Shown one piece after another: positions 12,247-39,174 of a stretch of 64,000 nucleotides of DNA (the stretch's first letter is position 1; the number at the start of each line of letters is the position of its first letter). Made by a program: the position numbers and the translations under genes. The notes below the pieces were generated by a model. That model saw nothing but the letters and a program-made list of their open reading frames with translations. It had not been told where the DNA came from and made no database searches. The DNA lies in assembly GCA_036558325.1 (NCBI GenBank), contig DATBFU010000067.1:5536-69535 (forward strand), in the 5' to 3' direction. The stretch is from Thermoanaerobaculia bacterium. Its GTDB lineage: Bacteria > Acidobacteriota > Thermoanaerobaculia > UBA5066 > Gp7-AA6.

Positions 12247-12359
12247 CACGCGAACGGACTGGTACGGCTTCACGCGGCGATCGTACCAAGCGAACGCCCC
12301 CGGGGTCGTTCCGAATGTCGGGACGGAGGCGCGAACGCCTCCGTCCCGGCATCCTTCTC

Positions 12360-28057: not shown

Positions 28058-28067
28058 CGCGCCGGAA

Positions 28068-28649
28068 TCAGGACGGTCGGACGGAGAGGTCCACCTTGGG
28101 GACTTCGCGCTCCGCCGCGTCGCGGATCTCGTAGAGCTCGACCGGCTGGAATCGGAAGGTCTGCGCGATGAAGCTGTCGGGGAAGACCTGCTGCGCCGTG
28201 TTGAAGCGCGTCGCGAGATCGTTGTAGAACTGCCGCGCGAATCCGATCTTGTTCTCGGTCGAGGTCAGCTCCTCCATCAGCGCCCGCACGCTCTCGTTCG
28301 ACTTGAGGTTCGGGTAGCTCTCCGCGAGCGCGAAGAGCCGGGACAGCGTCTGGGTGAGCTGGTTCTCTTTCTGCGCGGTGTCCGCCACGCCGTGTGCGCC
28401 CGCCGCCGCGTTGCGCGCCGCGATGACCTTTTCGAGGGTGTCCTGCTCGAACTGCATCTCCCCCTTGACCGAGGCGATGAGGTTGGGGATGAGGTCGTGG
28501 CGGCGCTTCAGCTGGACGTCGATCTGCTTCCAGGCGTTGGCGACCTGATTCTTCAGGGAAACGAGGTTGTTGTAGCGCCAGATCGCCCAGATGGCCGCGA
28601 CGAACGCGAGGGCGACGAGAAAGAACAGGCAGCCTCCGACGGCCATCAT
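28068..28649 (-). CDS. lemA: LemA family protein
   Basis: N-terminal TM plus the conserved LemA core (WKQIDVQLKRRHDLIPNLIASVKGEM..., FYNDLATRFN). 10 nt upstream of htpX. Confidence 0.9.
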   Translation of the reverse strand: MMAVGGCLFFLVALAFVAAIWAIWRYNNLVSLKNQVANAWKQIDVQLKRRHDLIPNLIASVKGEMQFEQDTLEKVIAARNAAAGAHGVADTAQKENQLTQTLSRLFALAESYPNLKSNESVRALMEELTSTENKIGFARQFYNDLATRFNTAQQVFPDSFIAQTFRFQPVELYEIRDAAEREVPKVDLSVRPS

Positions 28650-28653
28650 CGCG

Positions 28654-29784
28654 TCAGGCGTTCAGTCCCTGCCGCAGCTCCCGGGACAGGATCTCGACGG
28701 CCGACCGCGTCCCGCCGGTCATCTTTTCCTTCCAGACGGTGTCGGTCTCGAAGCGGCGGTCGCCGATGGATTCGGCCCACGGCCGCAGGGCGGCGTCGAG
28801 CTCGCTCGCCGACCAGACGTCGCCGCCGCGGCTGCGGGTCATGGCGATGACGTAAGGCACCGTCCGGATGAACGCGCGCAGCGCCGTCGAGCTCTTGATC
28901 GAGTATTTGCGGCCCGCAAACGCCGCCGGGAAGGCCTTCGCCGCCGCCTTGAAATAATTGAGGAAGAATCGGCGTGCGTTCTCGCGGAACTCCCGGGCGA
29001 TCCGTCCGCCGGCGGCATCCATCGCCGCGAAAACGTCGCGCAGCTCGTCCGCGAGCGATGCCTGGGTGACCGCGCCCTTGCCGATGCCGAGCACCTTGAT
29101 CTGACCCTTCAGCGGCGAGTGCTCGTCCTCGTTCAGCGCGCGGATGATGTCGTGCGCGGCGGCGAGGTTCTCGTCGCGGTAGAGGCGCCGTCCGGAGAGC
29201 GAGATCAGATGCGAAGGGTTGAGCTTGGTGTGCTTGCTGTTGATCGTCACGAAGAGCTCGACGACCTGATCCGGCGTCAGGGAATCGAAGACGACGGCCG
29301 GGACCTGGAAGTCCTTCAGGTTGTGCTTCTCCGCGAGCTGGTGCAGGGCGAGCAGCCGGTGCTGTCCGTCGAGCGCCCGCAGGATGCCGGACTCGTCCGG
29401 CAGCTTCAAGGTGCCGATGTCGTTGCGCGAGGCCGAGGAGGTGAAGTCGAGCCGCTTCTCGGACACGAGCAGCACGCTGCCGGGAATCGCCGGGAGCGTC
29501 CCGGAATCCGCGCACTGGAGGTAGTAGGCGACGAGCTCCTCGATCTTCTTCTGGATGATGGGCCGCTGGAACGCCTGCTCGGAGGCCGCGATCTTTTTCT
29601 CCAGGAACTCCCAGTTCACCCGGACTTCCTTGCCCTTGCGCGCGTGGGGCCGCGTGGTTTGCGAATGCGGCCCGAAGGAGAGGACCTCGAAGCCGACCAG
29701 GGTCTGGAGGTCGGCGCCGGACAGCAGAGCCTCGTAGAACCGCACGCCGAATTGGTTCAGCCGGAGCGAGGGAACAGACAGCAT
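28654..29784 (-). CDS. DGQHR domain-containing protein (DndB-like, ParB/Srx superfamily)
   Basis: Motif RALDGQHRLLALHQL. Second ATG (29782-29784) chosen because AAGGGGGG lies 7 nt upstream and the first ATG sits inside a TATAAT box. The stop is 4 nt before the lemA start. Confidence 0.8.
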   Translation of the reverse strand: MLSVPSLRLNQFGVRFYEALLSGADLQTLVGFEVLSFGPHSQTTRPHARKGKEVRVNWEFLEKKIAASEQAFQRPIIQKKIEELVAYYLQCADSGTLPAIPGSVLLVSEKRLDFTSSASRNDIGTLKLPDESGILRALDGQHRLLALHQLAEKHNLKDFQVPAVVFDSLTPDQVVELFVTINSKHTKLNPSHLISLSGRRLYRDENLAAAHDIIRALNEDEHSPLKGQIKVLGIGKGAVTQASLADELRDVFAAMDAAGGRIAREFRENARRFFLNYFKAAAKAFPAAFAGRKYSIKSSTALRAFIRTVPYVIAMTRSRGGDVWSASELDAALRPWAESIGDRRFETDTVWKEKMTGGTRSAVEILSRELRQGLNA

Positions 29785-29847
29785 CCGGATCCCCCCTTGT
29801 CGCGGGCGCATTATATGTAAGGGCCCGGCGAGGGCCCGGCCGGATCG

Positions 29848-30192
29848 TCAGGGAGGGGAGATCGCCCGCCAGTCGGCCGCGCCGGCCATCCGTTCGTGCA
29901 TCTGGGACGCCCCGGCGAGGATTCCCCGCAGCTCGGCGGTCAGGAGCTTTTCGAGGTCCGGGAGGTTCGCCGGATCGGCGAGCGGAACCGAGCACTCGAT
30001 GGCCGTCTGGCCGAGCGAGGCGAAGAAGGGCGACGGCCGGCGGGTCCAGTCGGACTCGTTGCGCCGGTGCTTGGTCATCAGGAAGGCGGCGAGTCGGCGC
30101 TCATCCCAGGGCTCGATGAGCGTCCAGCGAAAGTTCGCCCGGGCGCCCTTGTGCTGCACTTCGGGCTTCTCCGCGGCCAGAGCGATCGACAT
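29848..30192 (-). CDS. hypothetical protein
   Basis: 114-aa ORF upstream of the DGQHR gene. AT-rich divergent promoter region upstream (30193-30235). No recognisable domain. Confidence 0.4.
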   Translation of the reverse strand: MSIALAAEKPEVQHKGARANFRWTLIEPWDERRLAAFLMTKHRRNESDWTRRPSPFFASLGQTAIECSVPLADPANLPDLEKLLTAELRGILAGASQMHERMAGAADWRAISPP

Positions 30193-30235: not shown

Positions 30236-31006
30236 GTGAAGGTCCATTTCGCGACGATTTTGGCGCTCGGGCTTCGGGTCTGGCTCGGGGCCGCCGGCAC
30301 CGCGTCGGCGGCGGAGGGGCCGGCCGATCGCGTCTATCCGTCCCACCTCATGGTGGATCAGGAGGTCGTGGTCGCCGCCCGGATCACCGGGATCGTGGAC
30401 GAGATCCTGGTCGATCGCGGGGCGTCCGTGGCCAAGGACCAGCCGCTCTGCCGCCTCGACGCCCGGGAGCTCGACGCCGAGGTCGCCGAGGCCAAGGAGC
30501 AGATGGACCTGAAGAAGCTCGAGCTCGAGCGGGCGAACCGGCTCTCCGACGGCAAGGTCCTTTCCGCGGCCGACCTCGACGAGAAGAAGGCCGAGTACCA
30601 GGTGGCGGTGGCGCAGTACGACCGCGTCCGGACCATGCGCGACTACACGGTGATCCGCGCGCCGTTCTCGGGCGTCGTGACCGAGAAATACGCGCGGGTG
30701 GGACAGAAGGTCATCGAGGATCGGGCGGAGCCGCTCTTCAAGATCACGGCCTCCGAGCCGCTCCTTGCGCGCGTGTACCTTCCCGAGGAGGATCTGCTCA
30801 AAGTGAAGCGCGGCGATCCGGTCGATGTGACCCTCGACCGGTTTCCGCGGGCGCGCGCGACCGGCACGGTCCAGTTTCTGAGCCCCACGGTCGACGCGGC
30901 GAGCGGCACCTTTCAGGTCGTCGTTCAGGTCCGACGCGACCCTTCGCTGCCGGAGCTGCGCCCCGGTGTGGCCGTGAAGGTGCACTTCCGCGGCTCGCGC
31001 AACTGA
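30236..31006 (+). CDS. HlyD-family periplasmic adaptor (membrane-fusion protein), short form with signal peptide
   Basis: GTG start. Signal MKVHFATILALGLRVWLGAAGTASA. Lipoyl-like and beta-barrel segments (VAARITGIVDEILVDRGASVAKDQPLCRLD...IRAPFSGVVTEKYARVGQKV). Confidence 0.75.
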   Translation: MKVHFATILALGLRVWLGAAGTASAAEGPADRVYPSHLMVDQEVVVAARITGIVDEILVDRGASVAKDQPLCRLDARELDAEVAEAKEQMDLKKLELERANRLSDGKVLSAADLDEKKAEYQVAVAQYDRVRTMRDYTVIRAPFSGVVTEKYARVGQKVIEDRAEPLFKITASEPLLARVYLPEEDLLKVKRGDPVDVTLDRFPRARATGTVQFLSPTVDAASGTFQVVVQVRRDPSLPELRPGVAVKVHFRGSRN

Positions 31007-31010
31007 GGGC

Positions 31011-31724
31011 ATGGCGGGCGGGCGCTCGTCGAAACGGCTGCGCGACGCGATCGATCGCGTCCTGATCCACGACATCAAGAACATGGGTTTCCGGCTGGAG
31101 ATGCTCCGGTCCAACCTGGACGAGCACTACGGCGAGCCCGAGTTCAAGCGCTCGGTCCAGGAGCTTCTGGCCGCGACCGTCGACCGGCTCGACAAGATCG
31201 TCGGACGCTTCGCGGCGCACGAGGACGCGGTCCTCATCAAGGTCGCGCTCGATCTGAACGCCCTGGTCCGCGACGTGGGCGACGCTCCGACGCGGCGCGG
31301 AGCGCGGCCGAGGCGCGCGGGAGGAGGCGAGCTCGGCCGGCTGTCTCTCGCCCTCGGAGAGGTGCCGCCGGTCTGGGGCGACCCGTACTATCTGCGCGAC
31401 GCGCTCGCGAGCCTCGTCGACAACGCGCTCGAGGCCGCCGGGCCGCCGGGCAAGGTTCTCGTGCGCAGCTTCGCGACCGGCAAAGGAGCCCGGCGGCGCG
31501 CCAACATCGAGATCATCGACAACGGCCCGGGCATGTCGGCCGACTTCGTCCGCGACCGCCTCTTCCAGCCGTTCCAGACGACCAAATCGGACGGCGTCGG
31601 CCTCGGCCTCTTCACGGCCAACCAGATCGTCCGCCACCACGGCGGGACCGTCCGTTTGAAGTCGCGCCCGGGGGAAGGCACGCTCGTCCGCCTGTCCTTT
31701 CCGGCGGTCCGGGCCGAGCCGTGA
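31011..31724 (+). CDS. sensor histidine kinase, cytoplasmic, no sensory or TM domain (HisKA+HATPase only)
   Basis: IHDIKN H-box. DNALEAA...IEIIDNGPGM...GVGLGLF are the N, G1 and G2 boxes. 237 aa. Confidence 0.8.
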   Translation: MAGGRSSKRLRDAIDRVLIHDIKNMGFRLEMLRSNLDEHYGEPEFKRSVQELLAATVDRLDKIVGRFAAHEDAVLIKVALDLNALVRDVGDAPTRRGARPRRAGGGELGRLSLALGEVPPVWGDPYYLRDALASLVDNALEAAGPPGKVLVRSFATGKGARRRANIEIIDNGPGMSADFVRDRLFQPFQTTKSDGVGLGLFTANQIVRHHGGTVRLKSRPGEGTLVRLSFPAVRAEP

Positions 31725-33097
31725 CGGCCGCCGAGGAACTGCCGCGGATCCTGATCGTCGAGGACGATCCCTTTCTCCTGGATCAGCTCCGTTTCGCGCT
31801 CTCGGGCCGGTTCGCCGTCACGGGAGCGCGCGACGCGACCGAGGGACGGGCGCATCTGGCGGGCGAAGCCGACGTCTATCTCTTCGACCTTCGCCTGCCG
31901 CCGTCCCACACCGTCGAAGAAGGCTTCGGCCTCCTTCGGGAGGTCCGGCGGCGCGACCCGGACGCCACGGTAGTCGTGATGTCCGGAGAGACCGAGCGGC
32001 GCGAGGCCCTGCGTGCGGTCGAGCTCGGCGCCTTCGACTTCTTTCGCAAGCCGGTGGACGCGGCCGAGCTGCTCGTCATCCTGACGCGCGCCCTCGAGCG
32101 CCGCCGTCTCCTCGCCGAGAATCGCACCCTGCGTCTGGAGACGAAGGCGCCCGGCCCCTTCGACCGGCTGGTGGGGGAGAGCTCCGTCATGCGCCGGCTC
32201 CTCGACGAGATCCGGCGGCTGGCGCCTTCCGACGCCACGGTGCTCGTCGTCGGCGAGAGCGGCACCGGCAAGGAGCTCGTCGCGCACGCGATCCACGACG
32301 GAAGCCCGCGCGCGAAACGTCCGTTCGTGGCCGTCAACGCCGCGGCGCTGCCGGAGGCGCTCGCCGAATCCGAGCTCTTCGGGCACGAGAAGGGAGCGTT
32401 CACGGGGGCCGTGTCGTCGCGCCCCGGCCGCTTCGAGCTCGCGGCCGGCGGAACGCTTTTCCTCGACGAGGTCGGGACGCTCTCGCCGGCGATCCAGGCG
32501 AAGCTCCTGCGCGCCATCGAGTCCCGTCAGATCGAGCGGGTCGGCGGACAGCGCACCATTCCGGTGGATCTGCGGCTCGTCTCGGCGACCAACGAAGACC
32601 TGGACGGCGCCGTCGCCCGCGGGAGCTTCCGCGAGGATCTCTATTACCGGATCAATACCGTGCCGATCCGAATTCCGCCGCTCCGCGAGCGGCTGGAGGA
32701 TCTGGAACCCCTGTCGGCGCACTTCCTCGCGAAGTACGGCGAGCGGCACCGGCGGCCCGGCCGGCGTCTCGGTTCGGGCGTCCTCGAGCGCCTGCGCCAG
32801 CATCCCTGGCGCGGCAACGTGCGGGAGCTCGAGCACGTGATCGAGATGCTGGTGCTCTTCTCCGACCAGGAGGAGATCGGTCCGGAGGACCTGCCGCGCG
32901 TGCTGCGCGACCGGGCGGGCGCGGCGTCGGGCCGACCAGCCGGCGGCCTGCCGTTCGCCAGGGCCGTCGAGGAGTTCGAGAAGAGCCTTCTCGCCCAGGC
33001 GATCGCCGACGCGGGAGGGGTCAAGGCCGAGGCCGCCCGAAGGCTGGGACTCGACGGCAACCAGATCAAGTACCTCTGCAGGAAATACGGCCTCTAG
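31721..33097 (+). CDS. sigma-54-dependent Fis-family response regulator (NtrC-type: REC + AAA+ + HTH)
   Basis: GTG overlaps the HK stop. ILIVEDD...D(54) REC, GESGTGKE Walker A, GAFTGA sigma-54 contact motif, C-terminal Fis HTH. Confidence 0.9.
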   Translation: MTAAEELPRILIVEDDPFLLDQLRFALSGRFAVTGARDATEGRAHLAGEADVYLFDLRLPPSHTVEEGFGLLREVRRRDPDATVVVMSGETERREALRAVELGAFDFFRKPVDAAELLVILTRALERRRLLAENRTLRLETKAPGPFDRLVGESSVMRRLLDEIRRLAPSDATVLVVGESGTGKELVAHAIHDGSPRAKRPFVAVNAAALPEALAESELFGHEKGAFTGAVSSRPGRFELAAGGTLFLDEVGTLSPAIQAKLLRAIESRQIERVGGQRTIPVDLRLVSATNEDLDGAVARGSFREDLYYRINTVPIRIPPLRERLEDLEPLSAHFLAKYGERHRRPGRRLGSGVLERLRQHPWRGNVRELEHVIEMLVLFSDQEEIGPEDLPRVLRDRAGAASGRPAGGLPFARAVEEFEKSLLAQAIADAGGVKAEAARRLGLDGNQIKYLCRKYGL

Positions 33098-33109: not shown

Positions 33110-33135
33110 GTTGAAGAATTCAACCGCCGGTTGAA
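33110..33135 (+). promoter_or_regulatory. putative enhancer (UAS) for the NtrC-type activator: GTTGAA-N3-TTCAAC inverted repeat plus a second GTTGAA
   Basis: gGTTGAAgaaTTCAACcgccgGTTGAAaaatc lies about 120 bp upstream of the sigma-54 promoter. An AT-rich bendable spacer (33140-33215) lies between. Confidence 0.35.
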
Positions 33136-33228
33136 AAATCTTTCTCTTTGACCGCTGATGGAGGTCCCGGCAATCTATGAAATCATTTCTTTTCAAAGGT
33201 TTGGATGAGGCGTCGCAGGCGCCGGCGG

Positions 33229-33245
33229 TTGGTCCCAACCTTGCG
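33229..33245 (+). promoter_or_regulatory. sigma-54 (RpoN) promoter, -24 GG / -12 GC
   Basis: TTGGTCCCAACCTTGCG fits TGGYRYR-N4-TTGCW with exact GG-N10-GC spacing. It lies 33 nt upstream of the AAGGAGGG RBS and the ATG at 33278. Confidence 0.55.
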
Positions 33246-33277
33246 ATATCGGCTGTCAGAGCAAGGAGGGAACTGAA

Positions 33278-33805
33278 ATGGCGAACGAAGTGAGAATCAA
33301 GCTGACGGACGAGCAGAAGGCGAAGATCAAGGAAGCCACGGGCAAGGACATGCCGGAGATCCGGGTCGGCAGCCTCGGCGACAACCCCGCCCTCTCGGCG
33401 AAGACGGTCGCCCCGCACGCCTCGGCGCGCAACATCCACGCCGCCCGTAACGTCCAGGCGGCCCGTAACGTCCAGGCGGCCCGTAACGTCCAGGCGGCCC
33501 GCAACGTCCAGGCGGCCCGCAACGTCCAGGCGGCCCGAAACGTCCAGGCGGCGCGCAACGTCCAGGCCGCCCGCAACGTCGCGGCGGCGAAAAGCATCTC
33601 GGCAGCCAAGAACATCGCGGCAGCCAAGAACATCGCGGCGGCCAAGAACATCTCCGCGGCCAAGAACATCACGGCCGCCAAGACGGTCTCCCCGCGCAAC
33701 ATGGCCCGCAACCTGTCGGCCCGCAACGCGACGCGCAATCTCTCGGCGCGCAACGCGAGCCGGAATCTGTCCTCCCGCAACTCGACGCGCGGCACGACCA
33801 AGTAA
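33278..33805 (+). CDS. repeat protein of unknown function: about 45-aa N-terminal region followed by about 14 tandem hexapeptide repeats ([RK]N[IV]xAA) and 9-mer RNxxRNLSA repeats rich in N-x-S/T
   Basis: Strong RBS and ATG. 18-bp perfect and near-perfect DNA tandem repeats from about 33443. Sigma-54 promoter upstream, rho-independent terminator downstream. No homolog recognised. Confidence 0.7.
   Translation: MANEVRIKLTDEQKAKIKEATGKDMPEIRVGSLGDNPALSAKTVAPHASARNIHAARNVQAARNVQAARNVQAARNVQAARNVQAARNVQAARNVQAARNVAAAKSISAAKNIAAAKNIAAAKNISAAKNITAAKTVSPRNMARNLSARNATRNLSARNASRNLSSRNSTRGTTK
33443..33790 (+). repeat. in-frame tandem repeat tract (14 x 18 bp units GCCCGYAACGTCCAGGCG / GCCAAGAACATCGCGGCR, then 27-bp units)
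   Basis: The first three units are identical; later units drift. Entirely coding within 33278..33805. Confidence 0.85.
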
Positions 33806-33827
33806 CCTCGCGCCACCGGATCTTCGA

Positions 33828-33858
33828 GCGCCCCGCCTCGGCGGGGCGCTTTCTTTTT
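33828..33858 (+). terminator. rho-independent terminator (GCGCCCCGCC-tcg-GCGGGGCGC + TTTCTTTTT)
   Basis: Perfect 9-10 bp GC stem followed by a U-tract 22 nt after the repeat-gene stop. The stop codon of the convergent gene lies within the T-tract. Confidence 0.65.
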
Positions 33859-36080
33859 CACCAGAGGACGGTCTGGAGCCAGCGCTTCAGGACCCGGAAC
33901 GTGCTTCCGAGGACCGAGGCGCGGGGCCCGGAGATCTTGGCGAGCCCCGTCATTCCGGGCCGGAGCGAGCGGTCCGCGTTGTCGAACTCCGCCCGGGCGA
34001 CGAATCGGTCGGGACGAGCCGGCGGAGCGGACGGGTCGGCGGTGGACGAGGGCGTCGCGGGATGCTCGAGCGTCGCCGCCGAGACCTCGACGATCCGTCC
34101 ATGGGCGGGCCGAAGCGGCCGGCCCGGCAGCATGGCGGAGACCTCCTCGCCGACCTTCACGTCGTCGAGACGGCGTTCCGAGAAATCCAGGTCGGCGCGG
34201 AGCTTCCGCAGGTCGCCCACCTCGGCGAGCATCGTTCCGGCCAGGACGTGACGGCCGCTCCAGTCGGCGGTGCGCGCCGTCAGCACGGTCCCGGCGATCG
34301 GGCTGCGGACCACGAGCCTTTCCTGGCGGGCCCGATCGCTCGAGAGCTCCGATTCGACCGAAGCTCCCCGGCGCTCCGCCGCATACGCCAGCGCCGGATC
34401 GCTTTCGCCGCGCGCACGGTTCGCCTCCTTCTCGAGGTACCCGCGCTCGGCCGAGAGCTCCCGTCCGCGCGAAGCGAGGGCCGGGCTCGCGAGCCGAAAG
34501 ATGGGCTGGCCGGCCGCGACGACGTCGCCTTCGTTCGCCAGGACCTCGGCCACGACGGCGTTCTCCGGAGCTTCGAGGCGCGCCTCGGTCGAGGCCCGCA
34601 GCCGGATGTCGGTGCGGACCTTGCGATGCGTCCAGGGCACGAGGAGAACGACCGCGAGAAGAGCGACGCCCGCGAGCAGAGGCTTCCGGCTGCGGCTGGA
34701 CATGATGAGGTCCTTCTTGTCGAGATAGAAGAGACGGCCCGTCCGCGTCACGAGCCGGACGCGTTTGCGGAAGAGCCGCAGCAGCGTCAGGACCAGAAGC
34801 AGGACGGCGAGATTCGGGAAGTATTTCGAGTAGAAGTTGTAAAAGAGTCCGCCGATGAACGCCATCACGACGCCGATGTAGGCGAGCGCGAGCGGAGCGT
34901 AGATCCAGTAGATGCGCCGCTTGCGCCGCGAGGCCTCGGGGATCTCGACGGGCAGTCGCAGCACTTTCGCCTGGAAAAGGGCGCCGAGATATCGGAACGA
35001 CTCCTCCCGAAGCTCGGGGATCTCGAGGACGCTCGAGAGCGCGTAGTAGCCGTCGATCTTGATGAGCGGGTTGATGTTGAAGAAGACGGTCGACGCCCCC
35101 GTAAAGAGCATCGTCTTGTAGGCGAACTCGTTCAGGAAGCTGTCCGGATACGACACGACCCAGAGGAACGTCGCGGCGAAACAGATGAAACCTTCGATGT
35201 AGATGCCCGCGGTCGTGACCCAGAGCCGGTGCCATTTGCTCTCGAAGAGAAGCGAATCCGTCGTGTCGCAGTAGAAGGCCGGCGTGAAGTACAGGAGCGC
35301 GATGCCGATGTCGTGCACCTCGCCCCCGTAGAACTTCGTCGTGTAGGCGTGGGCGAACTCGTGGATGCATCCGATGATCGAGAGCAGGAGGAAGAACTGG
35401 ATCGCATCGAGCAGCGGCTTCTTCAGAAAGGCGTAAAGCTCGAGCGTGCCGGACCAGATCGGCTGCCAGTGCTGGACGAAGATGCCGACCGTCCAGAGCA
35501 CCGCGAGGCACCAGACGAGGACGACCGGAGGCGTCCAGATCCAGCGCACGTATTTCGCCGTGCGCACGAGGAATCGCTCGGGATCGAGCACGTGGAAAGG
35601 AATGAAGAAGATGTTGCGGCCCTCGGCCTTCTCCTCCGCGGCGCGCTGGCGCGCGGTCTTGGCCCGGGCGAGCAGCTGGAGGTTGCGTTCGGCCACGCCC
35701 TGCTCGATGAGGTCGACCTTCCGGAGCATTTCCTCGAAGTCGAGGACGAGCGTCGCCGAGATCTCGTCCCGCGGGAACTCGCGCCGGTAGTCCTCGAGGA
35801 TCTCCGTTCGCGTCCGTGTGCCGTCGAAGAGCTGGATGAGGCCCCACTCGGCGTCCGAGAAGTTGTAGTACTTGATCGTCTCGGGGTTCTTCACCACCCA
35901 CGTGACTTCGCCCATCTGGACGACGCGGCGGATGACGAGGTCGCCTCGGAGGGCGGGCCGGTCGCCGGCGGCGCCGTGCTTTTCCGCGAGCGCGGCGGCC
36001 GCGTCCCCCGTGCGGGCGGCGAGGAGGCCCCCGGGCCGCGCGCTCAGGGCAGGAGCGGCCAGACCTTTCTCCAGAGCCAT
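33858..36080 (-). CDS. tri-domain fusion: PqqD-like RiPP recognition element + S2P/M50 intramembrane zinc metalloprotease + HlyD-like periplasmic adaptor domain
   Basis: N-terminal PALRGDLVIRRV...YNFSDAEWGLIQLFDGTRTRTEILEDY is PqqD-like. HEFAH zinc motif in a TM helix and NPLIKIDGYY (S2P NPDG-type motif). C-terminal TM then the lipoyl/beta-barrel region (VVAEVLANEGDVVAAGQPIFRLAS...VVRSPIAGTVL). No stop between domains. ATG 36078-36080 overlaps the upstream gene by 37 nt; alternative ATG 35915. Confidence 0.7.
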   Translation of the reverse strand: MALEKGLAAPALSARPGGLLAARTGDAAAALAEKHGAAGDRPALRGDLVIRRVVQMGEVTWVVKNPETIKYYNFSDAEWGLIQLFDGTRTRTEILEDYRREFPRDEISATLVLDFEEMLRKVDLIEQGVAERNLQLLARAKTARQRAAEEKAEGRNIFFIPFHVLDPERFLVRTAKYVRWIWTPPVVLVWCLAVLWTVGIFVQHWQPIWSGTLELYAFLKKPLLDAIQFFLLLSIIGCIHEFAHAYTTKFYGGEVHDIGIALLYFTPAFYCDTTDSLLFESKWHRLWVTTAGIYIEGFICFAATFLWVVSYPDSFLNEFAYKTMLFTGASTVFFNINPLIKIDGYYALSSVLEIPELREESFRYLGALFQAKVLRLPVEIPEASRRKRRIYWIYAPLALAYIGVVMAFIGGLFYNFYSKYFPNLAVLLLVLTLLRLFRKRVRLVTRTGRLFYLDKKDLIMSSRSRKPLLAGVALLAVVLLVPWTHRKVRTDIRLRASTEARLEAPENAVVAEVLANEGDVVAAGQPIFRLASPALASRGRELSAERGYLEKEANRARGESDPALAYAAERRGASVESELSSDRARQERLVVRSPIAGTVLTARTADWSGRHVLAGTMLAEVGDLRKLRADLDFSERRLDDVKVGEEVSAMLPGRPLRPAHGRIVEVSAATLEHPATPSSTADPSAPPARPDRFVARAEFDNADRSLRPGMTGLAKISGPRASVLGSTFRVLKRWLQTVLW

Positions 36081-38464
36081 CGGGCGGGCTTGCGCAGGAG
36101 CAGCGTCGCGATGCTTCGCCGGCCGGCCCAGACCTTTCCCGTGCCGACCATTCCCGTCTTGAGCGCTCCGCCCGGGTTCTCGGCGCGGACCTCGGCGATG
36201 AGGAACCGGTTGTCGCCCTCCTCCCGGACGCGGGCGCCGAGGCGCATCACCGAGCCCGGGAACGTCCGCGTCGGATACGGGTTGATCTTCAGGGCGACCC
36301 GCTGCCCGACGGCGACGAGCGCCGCGTCCGCCTCGGGCACGGCGACCTCGGCCGTGACGGTGCCCGCGTCGGCGACGACGGCAAGCTCGTCGCCGCGATG
36401 AAAGAACTGGCCGACCCGCTCCTCGATCCGCGGCGTCACGATGACGCCGGAGGCCGGCGCGGTCAGGCGCGTTCGCGCGAGCTCTTCCTTCGCGAGGGCG
36501 ACGCGCGCGTCGAGCTCGTCGCGCCGCGACTGCGCCTCGAACATGCGGGCGGAATCGCCCGCCTCCCGGTAGCGCGCGACGTCGCTCGAAGCGATCGCAA
36601 GGTCCGCCTGCGCGTCGGCCAGGCGCGCCGCGTACGCCTCGTCCTTGAGCGTCGCGATGACCTCGCCCGCGGCGACGTGGTCGCCCTCGTGCTTCTGCAC
36701 CGAAGCGAGGACGCCGTCCACGCCGGCCGTCACCGAGCCGCGCGAGGCCGGGCGGACGCGGGCCGGCCCGGCGATGCGCAGCCGCCACGGAACGACACAG
36801 AGGAGCAGGGCGGCCGCGAGGCCCCCGATCCAGACCGCGCGGCGGCGCTTCGGAGCCTCGCCGAGCGCACGGCGTTTGGCCGCGAGCGGTTTCCAGAAGC
36901 CCACGAGCGGCACCTGGCGGTAGAGCTGCGCGTTGCGGACGGCCACGGTCGCCTGGTTGACGAGGATCTGGAGCAGGTCGCGCGTCTCGCCGTCGAAGAC
37001 GAGGGGATCCCTGCTCTCGAACGCGAGCACGCCGAGCTTGCCCTCCTCGTCGGCGAGAAGGGCGGCATGAAACGAGCGCAGGCCCGTCTCCTCGAAGACG
37101 GCGCGGAACTTCTCTTCGGTCTCCGGACGGTCCGCCGTCAGCGCGCCGTCGGGCGTCTGGGTCACCGAGACGTTTTGGCCGGAGAAGAAGACCCACTGGA
37201 GCAGCTCCTCGAGCCGCTTGACCTCGGGCTTCGAGCGGTCGACCTCGTTGGCGCCGGAGATCGCGCCGAGCCGCATCTTTCCCTTCTCGAGGATACCGAT
37301 CGCGCAGCGGTCGTACGTGATGAGCGCCGCCGTCGCGTTGACGATCGTCTGCATGACCTTGTCGAGATCGAGGGTCGCCGTGATCTCCCGGCTCACGGCG
37401 AGAAGGGCGTCGAGCTCTTCAACCTTTTTCTCCGCCTCGTGCTGGCGCGCGGTGCGCAGCGCGCGGACGGCCTGCCGCGCGACGTCCTGGAGCAGCTCCT
37501 CGTCCTCGGGCGCGAACTCGGGATGTCGCCCGCGCTTGTTCGCGAGCACGAGCGCTCCGACCGAAGCCTGCTCCTCGATGAGCGGCACGGCCAGGACGGA
37601 GCGGATCGGGTAGCCGTCGACCTCGGCGGCCAGAGGATCGTCGTCCGGGATCCGATTCCTCCGCAGCGCGCTCTGTTCGGCCAGGACGTCTCCGGCGATC
37701 GACGCGCCGACGGCTTCGGGCGCGGGCGAGATCTCGTAGTTGTCGTTGATCGCCGTCGCGGCGAGGGTCGCGTCGTCGCCCGAGAGGAGCCAGAGCGATC
37801 CGGTCTCAGCCGTCGCGAAGTCGACCGCCTTGCGGACGATCAGCGCCGCGAGCTCCTGCGGCACGATCGTGCCCCCGAAGGCCTTCGAGAGGTCGTAGAG
37901 GTTCGTGAGCCGCTCGATGGCGCGGAGCATCCCGACGGTCTTGCGCTCGGCGCGCAGGGCCCGGCCGAGCGCCGGCGCCGCGTCTTCGAGAAAGCCCGAG
38001 AGCCGCGCGAGCGCCGCATCGGGGTCCTGGCGCCGCCGGAAGAGGAGCACGAGGAGCGCGACGACGAAGCCCTCGGCTTCGAGGGGTAGAGCCACCGCGA
38101 TCTCGGTCCCCGCGGGCATCCCGCGGAGGAACGGGTCGTCGGCCGCGGCGAGCTCCGAGCGCTCGAGCGCGATCGCATGTCGGTCCCGGACGAGCTCCCA
38201 GGCCACCCCCGAATCCCGCGGCACCGAGCGTCGGCGGAAGCCGTCGGTGCCCTCGCCCGCGTTGCCGATGCACAGAAAGAGGGGATGAACGGTGTCCGGC
38301 GCCCAGAGGAGCGCGCCGTCGGCCTGGGCCATCTCGGCGCTCCACCGGGCCGCCCAGCCGGAGGTCTGAGAGAGGTTCTCGCAGAGCGCGAGCTCCGCGA
38401 GCGCCGAGACGGGGCGTTCCCCGTCGTGCCCCTCCGGGCCCCCTCCCTCCGGCTCGTCGGGCAT
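36044..38464 (-). CDS. three N-terminal GAF domains + TM + HlyD-family adaptor domain protein
   Basis: AGGAGA RBS. Three GAF-like blocks in residues 1-520, one TM (AVWIGGLAAALLLCVVPW), then the HlyD lipoyl/beta-barrel region (GVDGVLASVQKHEGDHVAAGEVIATLKDEAY...RLTAPASGVIVTP). Confidence 0.75.
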   Translation of the reverse strand: MPDEPEGGGPEGHDGERPVSALAELALCENLSQTSGWAARWSAEMAQADGALLWAPDTVHPLFLCIGNAGEGTDGFRRRSVPRDSGVAWELVRDRHAIALERSELAAADDPFLRGMPAGTEIAVALPLEAEGFVVALLVLLFRRRQDPDAALARLSGFLEDAAPALGRALRAERKTVGMLRAIERLTNLYDLSKAFGGTIVPQELAALIVRKAVDFATAETGSLWLLSGDDATLAATAINDNYEISPAPEAVGASIAGDVLAEQSALRRNRIPDDDPLAAEVDGYPIRSVLAVPLIEEQASVGALVLANKRGRHPEFAPEDEELLQDVARQAVRALRTARQHEAEKKVEELDALLAVSREITATLDLDKVMQTIVNATAALITYDRCAIGILEKGKMRLGAISGANEVDRSKPEVKRLEELLQWVFFSGQNVSVTQTPDGALTADRPETEEKFRAVFEETGLRSFHAALLADEEGKLGVLAFESRDPLVFDGETRDLLQILVNQATVAVRNAQLYRQVPLVGFWKPLAAKRRALGEAPKRRRAVWIGGLAAALLLCVVPWRLRIAGPARVRPASRGSVTAGVDGVLASVQKHEGDHVAAGEVIATLKDEAYAARLADAQADLAIASSDVARYREAGDSARMFEAQSRRDELDARVALAKEELARTRLTAPASGVIVTPRIEERVGQFFHRGDELAVVADAGTVTAEVAVPEADAALVAVGQRVALKINPYPTRTFPGSVMRLGARVREEGDNRFLIAEVRAENPGGALKTGMVGTGKVWAGRRSIATLLLRKPARWLWRKVWPLLP

Positions 38465-38483: not shown

Positions 38484-38819
38484 CTAGAAGCTCAGGACGG
38501 CTTTCTCCAGATCGTCATGAATCTCGAAGACCGAATCGAGCTTGGTCATCTCGAGGAGCTTGCGAACCTGGGGGCCGGCGTTCACGAGCTTCGTCTGTCC
38601 GCCTTCCTTCTGCGAGATGGTCAGCGCGCGCACGAGGGCGCCGAGCCCCGAGCTGTCGAGGAAACCGACCCGGCCGAGATCCACGAGCAGGTGGATGCGG
38701 CCGTCTTCCAGGAGATGGGTGACCGTTCTCTTGAAGTTGGACTCGGCTTCGCCGATGACCAGATCGCCGACGACGGTCAGGACCGTGACCCGCCCGTCCT
38801 CTCTCGTCGTGAGCTCCAT
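38484..38819 (-). CDS. STAS-domain anti-sigma factor antagonist (SpoIIAA-like)
   Basis: 111 aa. GFLDSSGLGALV with the conserved phosphorylatable Ser. 19 nt upstream of the GAF-HlyD gene. Confidence 0.85.
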   Translation of the reverse strand: MELTTREDGRVTVLTVVGDLVIGEAESNFKRTVTHLLEDGRIHLLVDLGRVGFLDSSGLGALVRALTISQKEGGQTKLVNAGPQVRKLLEMTKLDSVFEIHDDLEKAVLSF

Positions 38820-38904: not shown

Positions 38905-39120
38905 ATGAAGTCGGCGCGGACCGCCGATCACGAGGTGGCGGAGGTCGTGCTGCGGCAGGAGCCCGCGGTCGGCGGCCGTGTCACGGTGCGCGGCCCCGTC
39001 GGCGCGGAGGGGGAGTGGATCGTGATCGACCGGCGGCCCGACCCGCACGGATGGCGCGTCACGGCGGTGCGTTGTCTCGCGGCCTGCCGGGAGCATTCTG
39101 GAGCCGACGACCGGACTTGA
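38905..39120 (+). CDS. questionable small ORF (71 aa) overlapping the 3' end of the tRNA
   Basis: ATG ORF in the 280-bp gap between the STAS gene and the tRNA. Overlaps the tRNA by 22 nt. No domain recognised. Confidence 0.15.
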   Translation: MKSARTADHEVAEVVLRQEPAVGGRVTVRGPVGAEGEWIVIDRRPDPHGWRVTAVRCLAACREHSGADDRT

Positions 39121-39174
39121 ACCGGTGACCTGCGGTTTACGAAACCGCTGCTCTACCGACTGAGCTACGTCGGC
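39099..39174 (-). tRNA. tRNA-Thr (anticodon CGU)
   Basis: Cloverleaf by hand. Acceptor GCCGACG/CGTCGGC, D-arm GCTC-AGTCGGTA-GAGC, anticodon arm GCGGT-TTCGTAA-ACCGC, T-arm ACCGG-TTCAAGT-CCGGT, encoded CCA. 76 nt. Confidence 0.9.

What the first reader, a model, noticed from the sequence alone, without database searches (positions are those of the whole stretch)
33278..33805. Sigma-54-driven 175-aa protein made of tandem hexapeptide repeats with a C-terminal run of eight N-x-S/T motifs
After a K/E-rich 45-aa N-terminal segment, the protein is 7x ARNVQA, then 5x AKNI[AS/T]A, then RNxxRNLSA-type 9-mers. The DNA is 18-bp near-perfect tandem repeats, with the first three units identical, which implies recent expansion and potential length variation. 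The last 50 aa contain NIS, NIT, NLS, NAT, NLS, NAS, NLS, NST in succession, a pattern that would suit Asn-directed modification (for example NGT-type cytoplasmic N-glycosylation) or be a low-complexity coincidence. The gene is a clean unit (sigma-54 promoter, strong RBS, intrinsic terminator) next to its own activator and convergent to the PqqD-M50-HlyD gene. It is a plausible substrate or cargo, or a stress-induced structural protein.
Basis: seen in the sequence. Interest (0 to 1): 0.8.

Follow-up and report, generated by a model that had tools for sequence, protein, structure and literature searches.

The report
Sigma-54-driven leader-plus-tandem-repeat peptide precursor
This small gene encodes a conserved 40-residue "leader" followed by a species-specific array of short peptide repeats. 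It always sits next to a membrane protease that carries a leader-binding domain, so it is most likely the substrate of an undescribed peptide-processing and export system of Acidobacteria, not a glycosylation target.

Summary
ORF 33278-33805 (+) encodes 175 aa: a K/E-rich N-terminus, 7x ARNVQA, 5x AK[NS]I[AST]A, then 9-mers carrying 8 N-x-S/T motifs. It has an RBS and a terminator.

Comparative data change the interpretation. About 60 Thermoanaerobaculia species, and 187 cluster representatives overall, encode the same ~40-aa N-terminus. What follows is a completely different near-perfect tandem repeat in each lineage, with periods of 4-18 aa and tails that are basic, neutral or acidic.

- The sigma-54 -24/-12 element is present in 58 of 66 upstream regions.
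- An upstream palindrome is present in 57 of 60.
- All 57 members with enough flanking DNA sit convergent to an RRE(PqqD-fold)-M50-HlyD protein, inside a conserved module: HlyD, histidine kinase, sigma-54 regulator, precursor, M50-HlyD, GAF-HlyD, STAS.
- Repeat units differ mostly at synonymous sites (pN/pS about 0.26), so the unit peptide itself is under selection. The arrays are not just recent slippage.
- The N-x-S/T run is not conserved, even in the closest relatives, and no glycosyltransferase lies in the window.

Best reading: a leader-guided precursor cleaved, and probably exported, by a daptide/EpeP-like RRE-dependent intramembrane protease. No tailoring enzymes are present. The product's function is unknown.

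The parts
30236..31006 (+). Small periplasmic HlyD/membrane-fusion-type protein (256 aa, N-terminal signal-like segment). First gene of the conserved module.
   Evidence: Pfam HlyD_D23/HlyD_3 and NCBIfam RND_mfp at 151.7 bits, above the cut-off. Same position in L001, L004, L005 and L007.
31011..31724 (+). Soluble histidine kinase (237 aa). It has an H-box (HDIKN) and HATPase_c, with no sensor or transmembrane segment.
   Evidence: Pfam HATPase_c. Best NCBIfam match is PrsK-like at 137 bits, below the cut-off. No hydrophobic segment. Conserved in the module.
31721..33097 (+). NtrC-type sigma-54 enhancer-binding response regulator (458 aa).
   Evidence: Pfam Response_reg, Sigma54_activat (234 bits), AAA_lid_14 and HTH_8. 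NCBIfam PrsR-like at 415 bits, below the 502 cut-off.
33110..33144 (.). Putative upstream activator sites: palindrome GTTGAAGAATTCAAC (33110-33124) plus a degenerate second copy (33130-33144).
   Evidence: GTTGA-N5-TCAAC (up to 2 mismatches) occurs in 57 of 60 homologous upstream regions, at -140 to -226 from the ATG. It occurs in 244 of 3000 control windows. Often two copies about 20 bp apart.
33230..33244 (+). Sigma-54 -24/-12 promoter element TGGTCC-N5-TTGC.
   Evidence: TGG[CT][ACT][CT]-N5-TTGC is found in 58 of 66 family upstream regions at -43 to -93, against 29 of 3300 controls. Distant relatives carry near-consensus or consensus versions: TGGCAT-N5-TTGC in L067 and TGGCAC-N5-TTGC in L069.
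33263..33269 (+). Ribosome-binding site AAGGAGG, 8 nt upstream of the ATG.
   Evidence: Read directly from the sequence. Conserved in relatives.
33278..33403 (+). Conserved leader-like N-terminal domain (residues 1-42, MANEVRIKLTDEQKAKIKEATGKDMPEIRVGSLGDNPALSAK). Predicted strand-helix-strand.
   Evidence: 14 invariant columns across 18 proteins. Present in 59 GTDB species loci and 187 cluster representatives. AF2 predicts strand 5-8, helix 11-21, strand 27-30. No Pfam or NCBIfam family.
33425..33586 (+). Arg-type hexapeptide array: ARNIHA, 7x ARNVQA, ARNVAA.
   Evidence: The 7 ARNVQA units have 4 DNA variants, with 27 synonymous and 0 non-synonymous pairwise differences.
33587..33694 (+). Lys-type hexapeptide array: AKSISA, AKNIAA x2, AKNISA, AKNITA, AKTVSP.
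33695..33805 (+). 9-mer array (RNMARNLSA, RNATRNLSA, RNASRNLSS, RNSTRGTTK) and stop codon. It carries six of the eight N-x-S/T motifs.
   Evidence: The C-terminal RNSTRGTTK is shared with L008 and L009.
33826..33860 (+). Intrinsic terminator (11-bp GC-rich stem, then a T-run) between the convergent genes.
33858..36080 (-). RRE-M50(site-2 protease)-HlyD fusion protein (740 aa). RRE at about residues 40-135 (35676-35963). HEFAH at residue 240, NINPLIKIDG at residue 335. About 6-8 hydrophobic segments. HlyD domain from about residue 490.
   Evidence: Start mapped. Pfam Peptidase_M50 and HlyD. NCBIfam daptide_HExxH at 156 bits (below 300) and YydH/LiaK at 43 bits. PqqD at E = 0.012 over the full profile length. 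AF2 model of the RRE has pLDDT 84.8. The top 6 PDB fold hits are lasso-peptide RREs TbiB1 and 6jx3_B, TM 0.59-0.74. Catalytic motifs present in 120 of 120 homologs.
36044..38464 (-). GAF-GAF-TM-HlyD protein (806 aa), overlapping the M50-HlyD start by 37 nt (operon).
   Evidence: Pfam GAF x2 and HlyD. Single transmembrane segment at 544-562. Conserved in the module.
38484..38819 (-). STAS-domain protein (111 aa, anti-sigma-factor-antagonist type). First gene of the minus-strand operon.
   Evidence: Pfam STAS at 71.6 bits. NCBIfam ant_ant_sig at 70.7 bits, above the cut-off. Conserved in the module.

Best explanation
The 175-aa protein is a ribosomal precursor peptide. A conserved ~40-residue N-terminal leader is fused to a lineage-specific tandem-repeat 'core'.

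Proposed steps:
1. Expression (inferred from conserved DNA elements). The adjacent NtrC-type response regulator, fed by the soluble histidine kinase and perhaps by the STAS and GAF-HlyD signalling parts, binds the palindromic sites at 33110-33144. It then activates sigma-54 RNA polymerase at 33230-33244. The monocistronic transcript ends at the hairpin at 33826-33851.
2. Recognition (inferred by analogy with daptide MpaP and with lasso B1 proteins). The leader docks on the PqqD-fold RRE at the cytoplasmic N-terminus of the convergent M50-HlyD protein.
3. Cleavage. The site-2-protease domain (HExxH ... NxxPxxxxDG) cleaves the precursor, probably near the conserved G-x-N-P-A junction. In relatives with repeated [DE]RANP or RKAP motifs it may cut at every unit.
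4. Export. The repeat peptide or peptides are handed to the periplasm or exterior through an assembly of the three HlyD-type proteins.

Shown here:
- gene structure;
- family-wide leader conservation with hypervariable repeats;
- strict genomic linkage to the protease;
- RRE fold and intact protease motifs;
- conserved sigma-54 promoter and upstream sites;
- purifying selection on the repeat units.

Inferred only: binding, the cleavage site, export, and the biological role of the product. That role could be a species-specific signal, an antimicrobial, or an envelope or matrix polymer.
For: 1. Conserved leader with a variable core. The N-terminal 40 aa are near-invariant across 18 database proteins, 59 species-level loci and 187 representatives. 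The tails are unrelated repeats: ARNVQA, ANTPR, KPLA, AGKSIAGRA, EEGLR, ADLANS, ADTSIES and others.
2. Linkage. 57 of 57 members with at least 3.2 kb of downstream DNA have the RRE-M50-HlyD gene convergent and adjacent. The 7-gene module is conserved. It recurs in a distant DRANP-type subfamily.
3. The protease carries an RRE. PqqD profile E = 0.012 over its full length. AF2 gives three strands then three helices, pLDDT 84.8. The best PDB fold matches are leader-bound lasso RREs, TM 0.59-0.74.
4. The protease is a homolog of RiPP leader peptidases: daptide_HExxH 156-187 bits and YydH/LiaK 43-52 bits. JGI names it 'putative peptide zinc metalloprotease'.
5. Published precedent. In daptide clusters the RRE is N-terminally fused to a site-2 protease that removes the leader (PMC10028931). 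The M50 protease EpeP is thought both to cleave and to export EpeX (PMC10885120).
6. Catalytic motifs are intact in 120 of 120 homologs.
7. Tandem paralogous precursors, each with its own sigma-54 promoter, occur in several genomes. This is typical of precursor-peptide loci.
8. Repeat units are selected at the peptide level. Pooled pS is 0.34 and pN 0.087 (ratio 0.26, CI 0.22-0.30), with pN below pS in 42 of 43 arrays. In the window there are 27 synonymous and 0 non-synonymous differences among the ARNVQA units.
9. Sigma-54 promoter and upstream sites are conserved.
Against: - No tailoring enzyme is in the conserved module, so it is not a RiPP in the strict sense.
- No ABC, RND or MFS transporter and no TolC gene is in the module, so export is conjecture.
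- The precursor tails are hydrophilic and 35-190 residues long, unlike known short, hydrophobic M50 RiPP substrates.
- M50 scores are below every curated family cut-off.
- The leader-RRE interaction could not be modelled.
- There are no transcription, proteomic or biochemical data. Every organism is an uncultured MAG.
- STAS, GAF and PP2C parts also fit a purely regulatory proteolysis cascade.
Confidence: 0.6

Rival explanations
1. Regulatory proteolysis rather than a product. The conserved N-terminal 40 aa is the functional moiety, for example a modulator of the kinase, the regulator or the STAS partner switch. The M50 protease releases or destroys it, as SpoIVFB processes pro-sigma-K. The repeat tail is only a pro-sequence, tether or timer.
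For: - The module is rich in signalling parts: STAS, GAF, a soluble histidine kinase, and FHA-GAF-SpoIIE phosphatase in the distant subfamily.
- Site-2 proteases classically act in regulated intramembrane proteolysis (established knowledge).
- The N-terminus is the only part conserved between species.
- The same strand-helix-strand module occurs duplicated in other proteins.
Against: - Repeat units are under purifying selection for identity, which a mere tether would not need.
- Tandem paralogs with different tails in one genome argue that the tails matter.
- The RRE-S2P architecture is so far documented for leader removal in peptide biosynthesis (PMC10028931).
Confidence: 0.17
2. A cytoplasmic, stress-induced, intrinsically disordered or long-helix structural protein. 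It could be a histone-H1/AlgP-like polyanion binder or a hydrophilin/LEA-like protectant. The N-terminus would be a small interaction domain, and the adjacency to the protease would reflect turnover control.
For: - The window tail is Ala/Arg/Lys/Asn-rich with no acidic residues.
- It is predicted as an ~87-residue single helix with pLDDT above 90 over residues 60-125.
- Median net tail charge in the family is +17.
- There is no signal peptide, and sigma-54 regulons often respond to stress (established knowledge).
Against: - 14 of 62 tails are acidic and one is neutral, down to a net charge of -28. Many tails are Pro/Gly-rich. Neither charge nor helicity is a family property.
- Linkage to an RRE-protease is strict, 57 of 57.
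- A compositional function does not predict pN/pS of about 0.26 between units.
Confidence: 0.12
3. The C-terminal run of N-x-S/T motifs is a target for Asn-directed modification, such as NGT-type cytoplasmic N-glycosylation.
For: - Eight sequons lie in 47 residues, more than composition predicts (mean 2.55, P about 7e-4).
- An R-N-[SA]-T-R-G motif at the C-terminus recurs in the nearest relatives L001, L006, L008, L009 and L011.
Against: - The sequons arise from triplication of one 9-mer and from variants of one hexamer, so there are about 3 independent events.
- 46 of 66 listed members have none and 14 have exactly one. Only L042 (6) and L018 (4) have several.
- The closest relatives replace Asn by Gly or Thr in the hexamers.
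- No glycosyltransferase domain was found in the window ORFs scanned or in the conserved module.
Confidence: 0.04
4. Not a real gene: a spurious ORF created by an 18-bp DNA satellite in a GC-rich intergenic region.
For: The long overlapping antisense ORF 33256..35901 shows that GC-rich sequence here yields spurious ORFs. No protein family matches the product.
Against: - The N-terminus is conserved at the protein level across about 60 species, with saturated synonymous divergence (pS 0.54, pN 0.22).
- The reading frame and stop are conserved, including the C-terminal RNSTRGTTK, in relatives once long-read indels are allowed for.
- RBS, promoter and terminator are present, and GC3 is 0.93.
Confidence: 0.01

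Closest known systems
Daptide biosynthesis leader peptidase MpaP (RRE fused to an intramembrane site-2 protease) and its precursors (PMC10028931)
   Same: - An N-terminal PqqD-fold RRE is fused to an M50/site-2 protease with HExxH.
- It is the best NCBIfam hit of the neighbouring protein (daptide_HExxH, 156-187 bits, alignment starting in the RRE region).
- Short precursor ORFs sit next to it, have conserved N-termini and are often present in several copies.
   Different: - The score is below the 300-bit family cut-off.
- There are no MpaB/C/D/M-type tailoring enzymes.
- Precursors lack the ELExMEAP leader motif, the aliphatic core and the invariant C-terminal Thr. Their cores are hydrophilic tandem repeats of 35-190 aa.
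- The protease carries an extra C-terminal HlyD domain.
- Control is by sigma-54 and a two-component system, and the hosts are Acidobacteriota, not Actinomycetota or Bacillota.
Epipeptide system YydF/EpeX with M50 protease YydH/EpeP (PMC10885120)
   Same: - An M50 intramembrane metalloprotease matures a small ribosomal peptide and is thought also to export it.
- JGI annotates the homologs with the YydH-type name.
- There is a weak NCBIfam YydH/LiaK match.
   Different: - There is no radical-SAM epimerase and no ABC transporter.
- The 43-bit score is far below the 225 cut-off.
- The substrate is a long repeat array rather than a 17-residue epimerised peptide.
Lasso-peptide B1 proteins (TbiB1, PDB 5v1u/5v1v; 6jx3), stand-alone RREs
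   Same: They are the best structural matches of the N-terminal domain (TM 0.59-0.74, three strands plus three helices). In those structures the leader binds as an added beta-strand.
   Different: The similarity is in fold only (11-16% identity). No lasso cyclase or B2 protease is present, and here the RRE is fused to a membrane protease.
Multi-copy (polyprotein) peptide precursors: cyanobactin PatE cassettes, fungal KexB-processed repeat precursors (ustiloxin type), yeast alpha-factor, and Haft's His-Xaa-Ser repeat proteins (all from my own knowledge, not tested here)
   Same: One leader is followed by many copies of a short unit, and the copies are kept identical at the peptide level. The DRANP and RKAP relatives look like a recognition motif alternating with variable cassettes.
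   Different: In the window the units abut with no recognisable flanking cleavage sites. No release of unit peptides has been shown. The processing enzyme type (RRE-S2P-HlyD) differs from all of these.
NHLP/Nif11 leader families with HlyD plus a peptidase-ABC exporter (from my own knowledge; weak NCBIfam NHLM_micro_HlyD hits)
   Same: A long conserved leader, a hypervariable core, multiple paralogs and an HlyD-type adaptor in the locus.
   Different: The leader sequence is unrelated. There is no C39-peptidase ABC transporter, and the protease is an M50.
PEP-CTERM PrsK/PrsR sigma-54 two-component system
   Same: The kinase and regulator give their best NCBIfam matches to PrsK and PrsR.
   Different: Both scores are below the cut-offs (137 against 300, 415 against 502). 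The kinase lacks the PrsK membrane sensor. No PEP-CTERM proteins or exosortase are in the module.

Membership tests
RRE-dependent intramembrane leader peptidase systems (daptide MpaP type) | PqqD-fold RRE fused N-terminally to a site-2 (M50) protease | tested here: met
   Pfam PqqD E = 0.012 over the full profile. AF2 model pLDDT 84.8 with three strands then three helices. Top PDB fold hits are TbiB1 and 6jx3_B, TM 0.59-0.74. Pfam Peptidase_M50.
RRE-dependent intramembrane leader peptidase systems (daptide MpaP type) | Intact zinc-protease motifs HExxH and NxxPxxxxDG | tested here: met
   HEFAH at residue 240 and NINPLIKIDG at residue 335. Both motifs are present in 120 of 120 homologs.
RRE-dependent intramembrane leader peptidase systems (daptide MpaP type) | Reaches the curated NCBIfam cut-off for daptide_HExxH (300 bits) | tested here: not met
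   156.4 bits for the window protein and 187.4 bits for L067.
RRE-dependent intramembrane leader peptidase systems (daptide MpaP type) | [quoted passage not shown] | tested here: not met
   The module contains only HlyD, histidine kinase, response regulator, M50-HlyD, GAF-HlyD and STAS genes. The precursor ends ...GTTK and its leader is unrelated.
RRE-dependent intramembrane leader peptidase systems (daptide MpaP type) | Adjacent short ORFs with a conserved N-terminus and variable C-terminus, often several per locus | tested here: met
   Adjacency is 57 of 57. There are 2-3 tandem paralogs in L060 and L062-L065.
RiPP (strict definition) | Post-translational modification of the core by a dedicated enzyme | tested here: not met
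   No modifying enzyme is recognisable in the conserved module by Pfam or NCBIfam. Modification by unlinked enzymes is not testable here.
Epipeptide (YydF/EpeX) systems | YydH/LiaK-family protease at or above 225 bits, plus a radical-SAM epimerase | tested here: not met
   43.4 bits. No radical-SAM gene is in the module.
Sigma-54-dependent gene | -24 GG and -12 GC elements with canonical spacing upstream of the gene | tested here: met
   TGGTCC-N5-TTGC at 33230-33244. Conserved in 58 of 66 family upstream regions against 0.9% of controls.
Sigma-54-dependent gene | Cognate enhancer-binding protein and upstream activator sites | tested here: met
   Sigma54_activat plus HTH_8 regulator immediately upstream. 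Palindrome GTTGA-N5-TCAAC in 57 of 60 regions.
Sigma-54-dependent gene | Transcription start at the predicted site and dependence on rpoN and the activator | not testable with these tools
   Needs 5'-RACE, RNA-seq or reporter assays.
NGT (GT41)-type N-glycosylation substrate | N-x-S/T sequons in the protein | tested here: met
   Eight sequons at residues 124-170.
NGT (GT41)-type N-glycosylation substrate | Sequons conserved in orthologs | tested here: not met
   46 of 66 listed members have none and 14 have one. L008 has 2, L018 has 4 and L042 has 6. Frame-corrected reading gives 2 for L008 and 3 for L009.
NGT (GT41)-type N-glycosylation substrate | Glycosyltransferase encoded nearby or in the genome | tested here: not met
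   No GT domain was found in the window ORFs scanned or in the conserved module. The rest of the genome is not available.
Tripartite / type I secretion (HlyD membrane-fusion protein systems) | Membrane-fusion (HlyD) domains | tested here: met
   Three proteins carry HlyD_D23/HlyD_3.
Tripartite / type I secretion (HlyD membrane-fusion protein systems) | Inner-membrane ABC, RND or MFS pump and a TolC-type channel as partners | tested here: not met
   None is present in the conserved module. An unlinked TolC cannot be excluded.
Multi-core (cassette) precursor peptides | Repeated units maintained by selection at the peptide level | tested here: met
   pN/pS of 0.26 (CI 0.22-0.30) in 43 arrays. The window ARNVQA block has 27 synonymous and 0 non-synonymous differences.
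Multi-core (cassette) precursor peptides | Recognition or cleavage motifs flanking each unit, and release of unit peptides | tested here: inconclusive
   Repeated [DE]RANP and RKAP motifs punctuate the tails of distant relatives. The window units abut without flanks. Release is not testable here.

The most novel reading that the evidence does not exclude
An undescribed class of bacterial 'polyprotein' peptide precursors in Acidobacteriota. A universal leader delivers a species-specific array of identical short units to an RRE-site-2-protease-HlyD envelope machine. The machine cuts the array into many copies of a 4-18-residue peptide and exports them as a sigma-54-controlled, species-specific signal or weapon. 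This would be a bacterial counterpart of alpha-factor and neuropeptide precursors, using an intramembrane protease as the inner-membrane component of an MFP-type exporter.
Probability: 0.25. Interest if true: 0.85.

Novelty: new variant of a known kind. Interest (0 to 1): 0.72.

Why it matters
If the model holds, three things follow.
1. RRE-fused intramembrane proteases, so far tied to daptides in Gram-positive bacteria, would extend to a widespread system in Acidobacteriota that has no tailoring enzymes. Acidobacteriota are abundant and almost uncultured.
2. A protease-membrane-fusion-protein fusion would point to a new way of moving peptides across a diderm envelope.
3. Tandem peptide arrays whose units are kept identical by selection, yet differ completely between species, would be a new kind of ribosomal product. 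It could be a species-specific signal, an antimicrobial or a matrix polymer. It is directly testable by co-expressing two genes.

There is also a practical caveat. Short-read contigs can break inside these repeat arrays: L071 from the same population ends inside the ARNVQA array. Such genes may therefore be under-represented in short-read assemblies.

Tried and rejected
1. Co-folding the leader with the RRE. The binding step therefore stays untested.
2. Copy-number polymorphism.
   - The exact protein is not on record elsewhere.
   - The only other contig of the same population, L071, is 100% identical over 303 nt but ends inside the ARNVQA array. It gives no independent copy number.
   - Only species-level relatives could be compared: L008 has about 18 hexamers and L009 about 12.
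3. Literature searches found nothing describing this family. I searched sequence strings (ADRANP, LTDEQKAKIK) and combinations of M50, HlyD, RRE, tandem repeat, Acidobacteria and sigma-54.
4. Pfam and NCBIfam gave nothing for the precursor or leader. The only hit was a low-complexity match to EntB at 26 bits against a 780-bit cut-off, which I rejected as compositional.
5. A polyanion-binding (histone-like) function as the family-wide role was rejected once acidic tails were found.
6. My first search for the upstream palindrome used the wrong spacer (7 nt) and found nothing. Corrected to 5 nt, it worked.
7. My first regex extraction of the RRE picked up spurious ORFs. I replaced it with an HMM search.
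8. Conserved unknown ORFs were checked for a hidden tailoring enzyme, and nothing significant came up. These were the 114-aa ORF at 29848-30192, the 377-aa ORF in L067 and the 353-aa ORF in L005.
I treat it only as a lead because that sequence was not verified.
Full report
**1. The observation**

Tandem Repeats Finder reports an 18-bp array of 9.2 copies (33423-33588), a second 18-bp array of 6.1 copies (33575-33683) and a 27-bp array of 3.1 copies (33707-33790).

Read unit by unit, the tail runs as follows:
- ARNIHA, then 7x ARNVQA, then ARNVAA;
- AKSISA, AKNIAA x2, AKNISA, AKNITA, AKTVSP;
- four 9-mers: RNMARNLSA, RNATRNLSA, RNASRNLSS, RNSTRGTTK.

Eight N-x-S/T motifs lie at residues 124-170. 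The gene has AAGGAGG 8 nt before the ATG, an 11-bp GC-rich hairpin with a T-run at 33826-33860, and TGGTCC-N5-TTGC at 33230-33244. GC3 is 0.93 in a window of 69% GC.

**2. The neighbourhood**

- Upstream on the same strand lie a small HlyD-type protein (30236-31006), a sensor-less histidine kinase (31011-31724) and an NtrC-type sigma-54 activator (31721-33097).
- Convergent to the repeat gene is a 740-aa protein (33858-36080, start mapped). It has an N-terminal PqqD-like domain, an M50 site-2-protease core and a C-terminal HlyD domain.
- Upstream of that, in the same operon, lie a GAF-GAF-TM-HlyD protein (36044-38464) and a STAS protein (38484-38819).

**3. Relatives**

A word-indexed search found 17 proteins. 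A scan of GTDB species representatives found 59 loci. All but one are labelled Acidobacteriota, Acidobacteria or Thermoanaerobaculia; L025 is labelled Acidithiobacillales. An exhaustive profile search with the first 42 residues found 187 cluster representatives, 84 of them at E <= 1e-10.

All of them share a near-invariant N-terminus: M-[AGS]-[NK]-E-V-[RK]-I-x-L-T-x-x-Q-K-A-K-I-K-x-A-T-G-x(4)-E-I-R-V-x(3)-G-x-N-P-A.

What follows is a different near-perfect tandem repeat in every lineage. Examples are ANTPR, KPLA, AAPRG, AGKSIAGRA, KAMRAQ, SPSLK, EEGLR, GDQEALRA, ADLANS and ADTSIES.
- Periods range from 4 to 18 residues.
- Net tail charge ranges from -28 to +43.
- 17 of 62 tails are Pro-rich.
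- Several genomes carry two or three paralogs in tandem.

So neither basic charge, helicity nor N-x-S/T is a family property. The only constants are the leader and the fact of short-period repetition.

**4. Genomic linkage**

The seven-gene module is the same in every long contig examined: small HlyD, kinase, sigma-54 regulator, precursor, then convergent M50-HlyD, GAF-HlyD and STAS. An HMM of the protease's N-terminal domain hits 59 of 67 loci. All 57 family members with at least 3.2 kb of downstream sequence have the domain on the opposite strand, mostly about 2.2 kb from the precursor stop.

A distant subfamily has the leader variant KEVTIKLT[DE][DE]QR.QIK.AIGQDI.EVKV. Its tails are punctuated by repeated [DE]RANP motifs separated by variable 3-9-residue spacers. 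It carries the same module plus an FHA-GAF-SpoIIE phosphatase. A related group repeats RKAP in the same way. The window family keeps one copy of such a motif, G-D-N-P-A, at the leader-repeat junction.

**5. Regulation**

The element TGG[CT][ACT][CT]-N5-TTGC occurs in 58 of 66 distinct upstream regions at -43 to -93 from the ATG, mostly -44 to -51. It occurs in 29 of 3300 control windows from the same loci. Nearly every tandem paralog has its own copy. The DRANP relatives carry TGGCAT-N5-TTGC (L067) and consensus TGGCAC-N5-TTGC (L069).

A palindrome, GTTGA-N5-TCAAC, often duplicated about 20 bp apart, lies at -140 to -226 in 57 of 60 regions, against 8% of controls. In the window it is at 33110-33124, with a degenerate copy at 33130-33144, directly after the stop codon of the activator gene.

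This is the standard layout of an enhancer-dependent sigma-54 promoter. The claim rests on conservation, not on transcript data.

**6. The protease**

- Its residues about 40-135 match Pfam PqqD weakly but over the full profile length (E = 0.012).
- An AF2 model built on 31 homologs (pLDDT 84.8) has three strands followed by three helices.
- The six best PDB fold matches are leader-bound lasso-peptide RREs: TbiB1 (5v1u, 5v1v) and 6jx3_B, with TM 0.59-0.74.
- HExxH and NxxPxxxxDG are present in all 120 homologs retrieved.
- The best curated family match is the daptide intramembrane metalloprotease (156 bits, cut-off 300), followed by YydH/LiaK (43 bits, cut-off 225).

The daptide paper describes exactly this RRE-site-2-protease fusion as the RRE-dependent leader peptidase (PMC10028931). 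A review notes that the M50 protease EpeP is thought both to cleave and to export its peptide (PMC10885120). No tailoring enzyme, ABC, RND or MFS pump, or TolC gene is in the conserved module.

**7. Are the repeats just recent slippage?**

In the window, three ARNVQA units are DNA-identical, which fits a recent duplication. The seven units nevertheless comprise four DNA variants that differ only synonymously: 27 synonymous and 0 non-synonymous pairwise differences. That needs at least four mutations, all synonymous, where 26% of sites are synonymous. My own arithmetic from these numbers (0.26 to the fourth power) puts the chance of that at about 0.005.

Across 43 arrays with a clear period, adjacent units have pooled pS 0.34 and pN 0.087. 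The ratio is 0.26 (bootstrap CI 0.22-0.30), with pN below pS in 42 of 43 arrays and pS at least 0.3 in 23.

Short-read assemblies may be biased against DNA-perfect arrays. L071, from the same population as the window, breaks inside the ARNVQA array. Arrays from long-read MAGs, taken without any filter, still give a ratio of 0.445.

The peptide sequence of the unit is therefore under purifying selection within arrays, while it changes wholesale between lineages.

**8. The closest relatives**

L008 and L009 are long-read MAGs whose N-terminal region is 83-90% identical to the window protein. They need frame correction for indels. After correction they show the same architecture: Arg-type hexamers, then Lys-type hexamers, then 9-mers ending in RNSTRGTTK.
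- Their units are ARGVQA and AKG[VI]QA.
- They have about 18 and about 12 hexamers, against 15 in the window.
- They keep only 2-3 sequons.

Copy number and unit sequence therefore vary between species, and the reading frame is conserved.

**9. The N-x-S/T idea**

The eight motifs exceed the compositional expectation (mean 2.55, P about 7e-4). They stem from one triplicated 9-mer plus variants of one hexamer, so the events are few. 46 of the 66 listed members have none and 14 have one. The nearest relatives lose the Asn. No glycosyltransferase domain was found in the window ORFs scanned. I rate functional Asn modification at about 4%.

**10. Structure of the window protein**

AF2 predicts strand 5-8, helix 11-21 and strand 27-30 (pLDDT 71-85). 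A low-confidence linker covers residues 31-49. A single helix spans 50-136, with pLDDT above 90 for residues 60-125, and a less confident helix spans 139-163. This describes this species' Ala-rich array only. Pro/Gly-rich arrays in relatives cannot be helical.

**11. Mechanism proposed**

- Shown: items 1-8 above.
- Inferred: the activator drives sigma-54 transcription of the precursor. The leader docks on the RRE. The site-2 protease cleaves at or near the G-x-N-P-A junction, and possibly at each RANP or RKAP motif in relatives. The three HlyD-type proteins then form the periplasmic part of a cleave-and-export assembly.
- Unknown: the role of the released repeat peptide or peptides. Lineage-specific units, tight regulation and tandem paralogs would suit a signal or an antimicrobial.
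- Probabilities: about 0.6 that the protein is the substrate of the neighbouring protease, and about 0.4 that the product is exported.

**12. Rivals**

- A purely regulatory proteolysis, in which the conserved N-terminus is the active part (0.17).
- A cytoplasmic disordered or helical stress protein (0.12).
- An Asn-modified substrate (0.04).
- A spurious ORF (0.01).

**13. Novelty**

The parts are known kinds: leader, RRE, M50 leader peptidase, membrane-fusion domains and a sigma-54 two-component switch. The combination is not in Pfam or NCBIfam and did not turn up in the literature searches. That combination is hydrophilic tandem-repeat cores with selected unit identity, an RRE-S2P-HlyD fusion, no tailoring enzymes, and restriction to Acidobacteriota. 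I classify it as a new variant of a known kind, with a 25% chance that it is a new class of polyprotein-type exported peptides.

Noticed in passing
window 10694-10752 (-); ORFs 10747-11328 and 8257-10734 (-): A SECIS_3 element (66 bits, above the gathering score) sits immediately after an in-frame TGA. The TGA splits the formate-dehydrogenase alpha subunit into two ORFs (Molybdop_Fe4S4, then Molybdopterin). This points to a selenocysteine-containing Fdh, within an operon that also has an FeS subunit (7359-8243), cytochrome b (6650-7348), FdhE (5860-6438) and FdhD (11380-12483).
   Followed up: partly
P0216, P0218, P0222, P0231, P0236, P0242, P0252, P0268, P0280-P0317; loci L067-L069: A distant subfamily of the same leader has tails punctuated by repeated [DE]R[AS]NP motifs with variable 3-9-aa spacers. 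It has the same M50-HlyD / HlyD / GAF-HlyD / sigma-54 module plus an FHA-GAF-SpoIIE (PP2C) phosphatase and STAS. It looks like a motif-plus-cassette precursor.
   Followed up: partly
P0229, P0254, P0256, P0273, P0278; P0238, P0247: More leader relatives have other recurring motifs in the tail: RKAP[FLWY] separated by variable acidic spacers, or AKAAAKLP repeats. Their genomic context was not examined.
   Followed up: no
P0213, P0215, P0221, P0227, P0233: The strand-helix-strand 'leader' module (I-x-L-T-x-x-Q-x-x-x-I-K-x-A-T-G) occurs twice in some proteins, including ~190-aa proteins flanked by hydrophobic segments. It may be an independent small domain with a wider distribution.
   Followed up: no
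window 29848-30192 (-): A 114-aa ORF with no family match lies divergent to the small HlyD gene. An ORF of the same size and position occurs in L001, L006 and L007, so it may belong to the module.
   Followed up: partly
window 27086-29811 (-): HtpX-like M48 protease, LemA and a DGQHR/DndB-like protein form a cluster just upstream of the module. The cluster is syntenic in the closest relatives (L001, and partly in L006, where the DndB position holds an unannotated ORF) but absent in L004, L005 and L067.
   Followed up: partly
L071 (JGI 3300036835), equal to window 33528-33830: A short-read contig from the same population is 100% identical but ends inside the ARNVQA array. Repeat-induced assembly breaks may hide family members, or truncate them, in short-read metagenomes.
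   Followed up: yes
L008 8001-8600 and L009 8001-8700: In these long-read MAGs the orthologous genes carry single-base indels inside the repeats. The called ORFs therefore run on as 572-aa and 223-aa artefacts. The true products are recovered by switching frame.
   Followed up: yes
window 39102-39174 (-): A tRNA gene (Rfam, 73.9 bits) lies between the STAS gene and the SMC gene (39260-42817). In L001 a GH63-like gene and a Kdo-hydroxylase gene occupy the space between STAS and SMC instead.
   Followed up: no
window 43137-44249 (+): A 370-aa protein has an FHA-like (Yop-YscD_cpl) N-terminus and a Fis-type HTH_8 C-terminus but no AAA+ sigma-54 interaction domain. This is an unusual architecture.
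   Followed up: no
window 19645-21048 (-) and 48732-49412 (-): A Ser/Thr protein kinase fused to a universal stress protein domain, and a response-regulator receiver fused to PilZ.
   Followed up: no
L025 (JBLMYG010000459.1): One family member sits in a MAG labelled Acidithiobacillales, while all the others are Acidobacteriota. This is either mis-binning or horizontal transfer.
   Followed up: no
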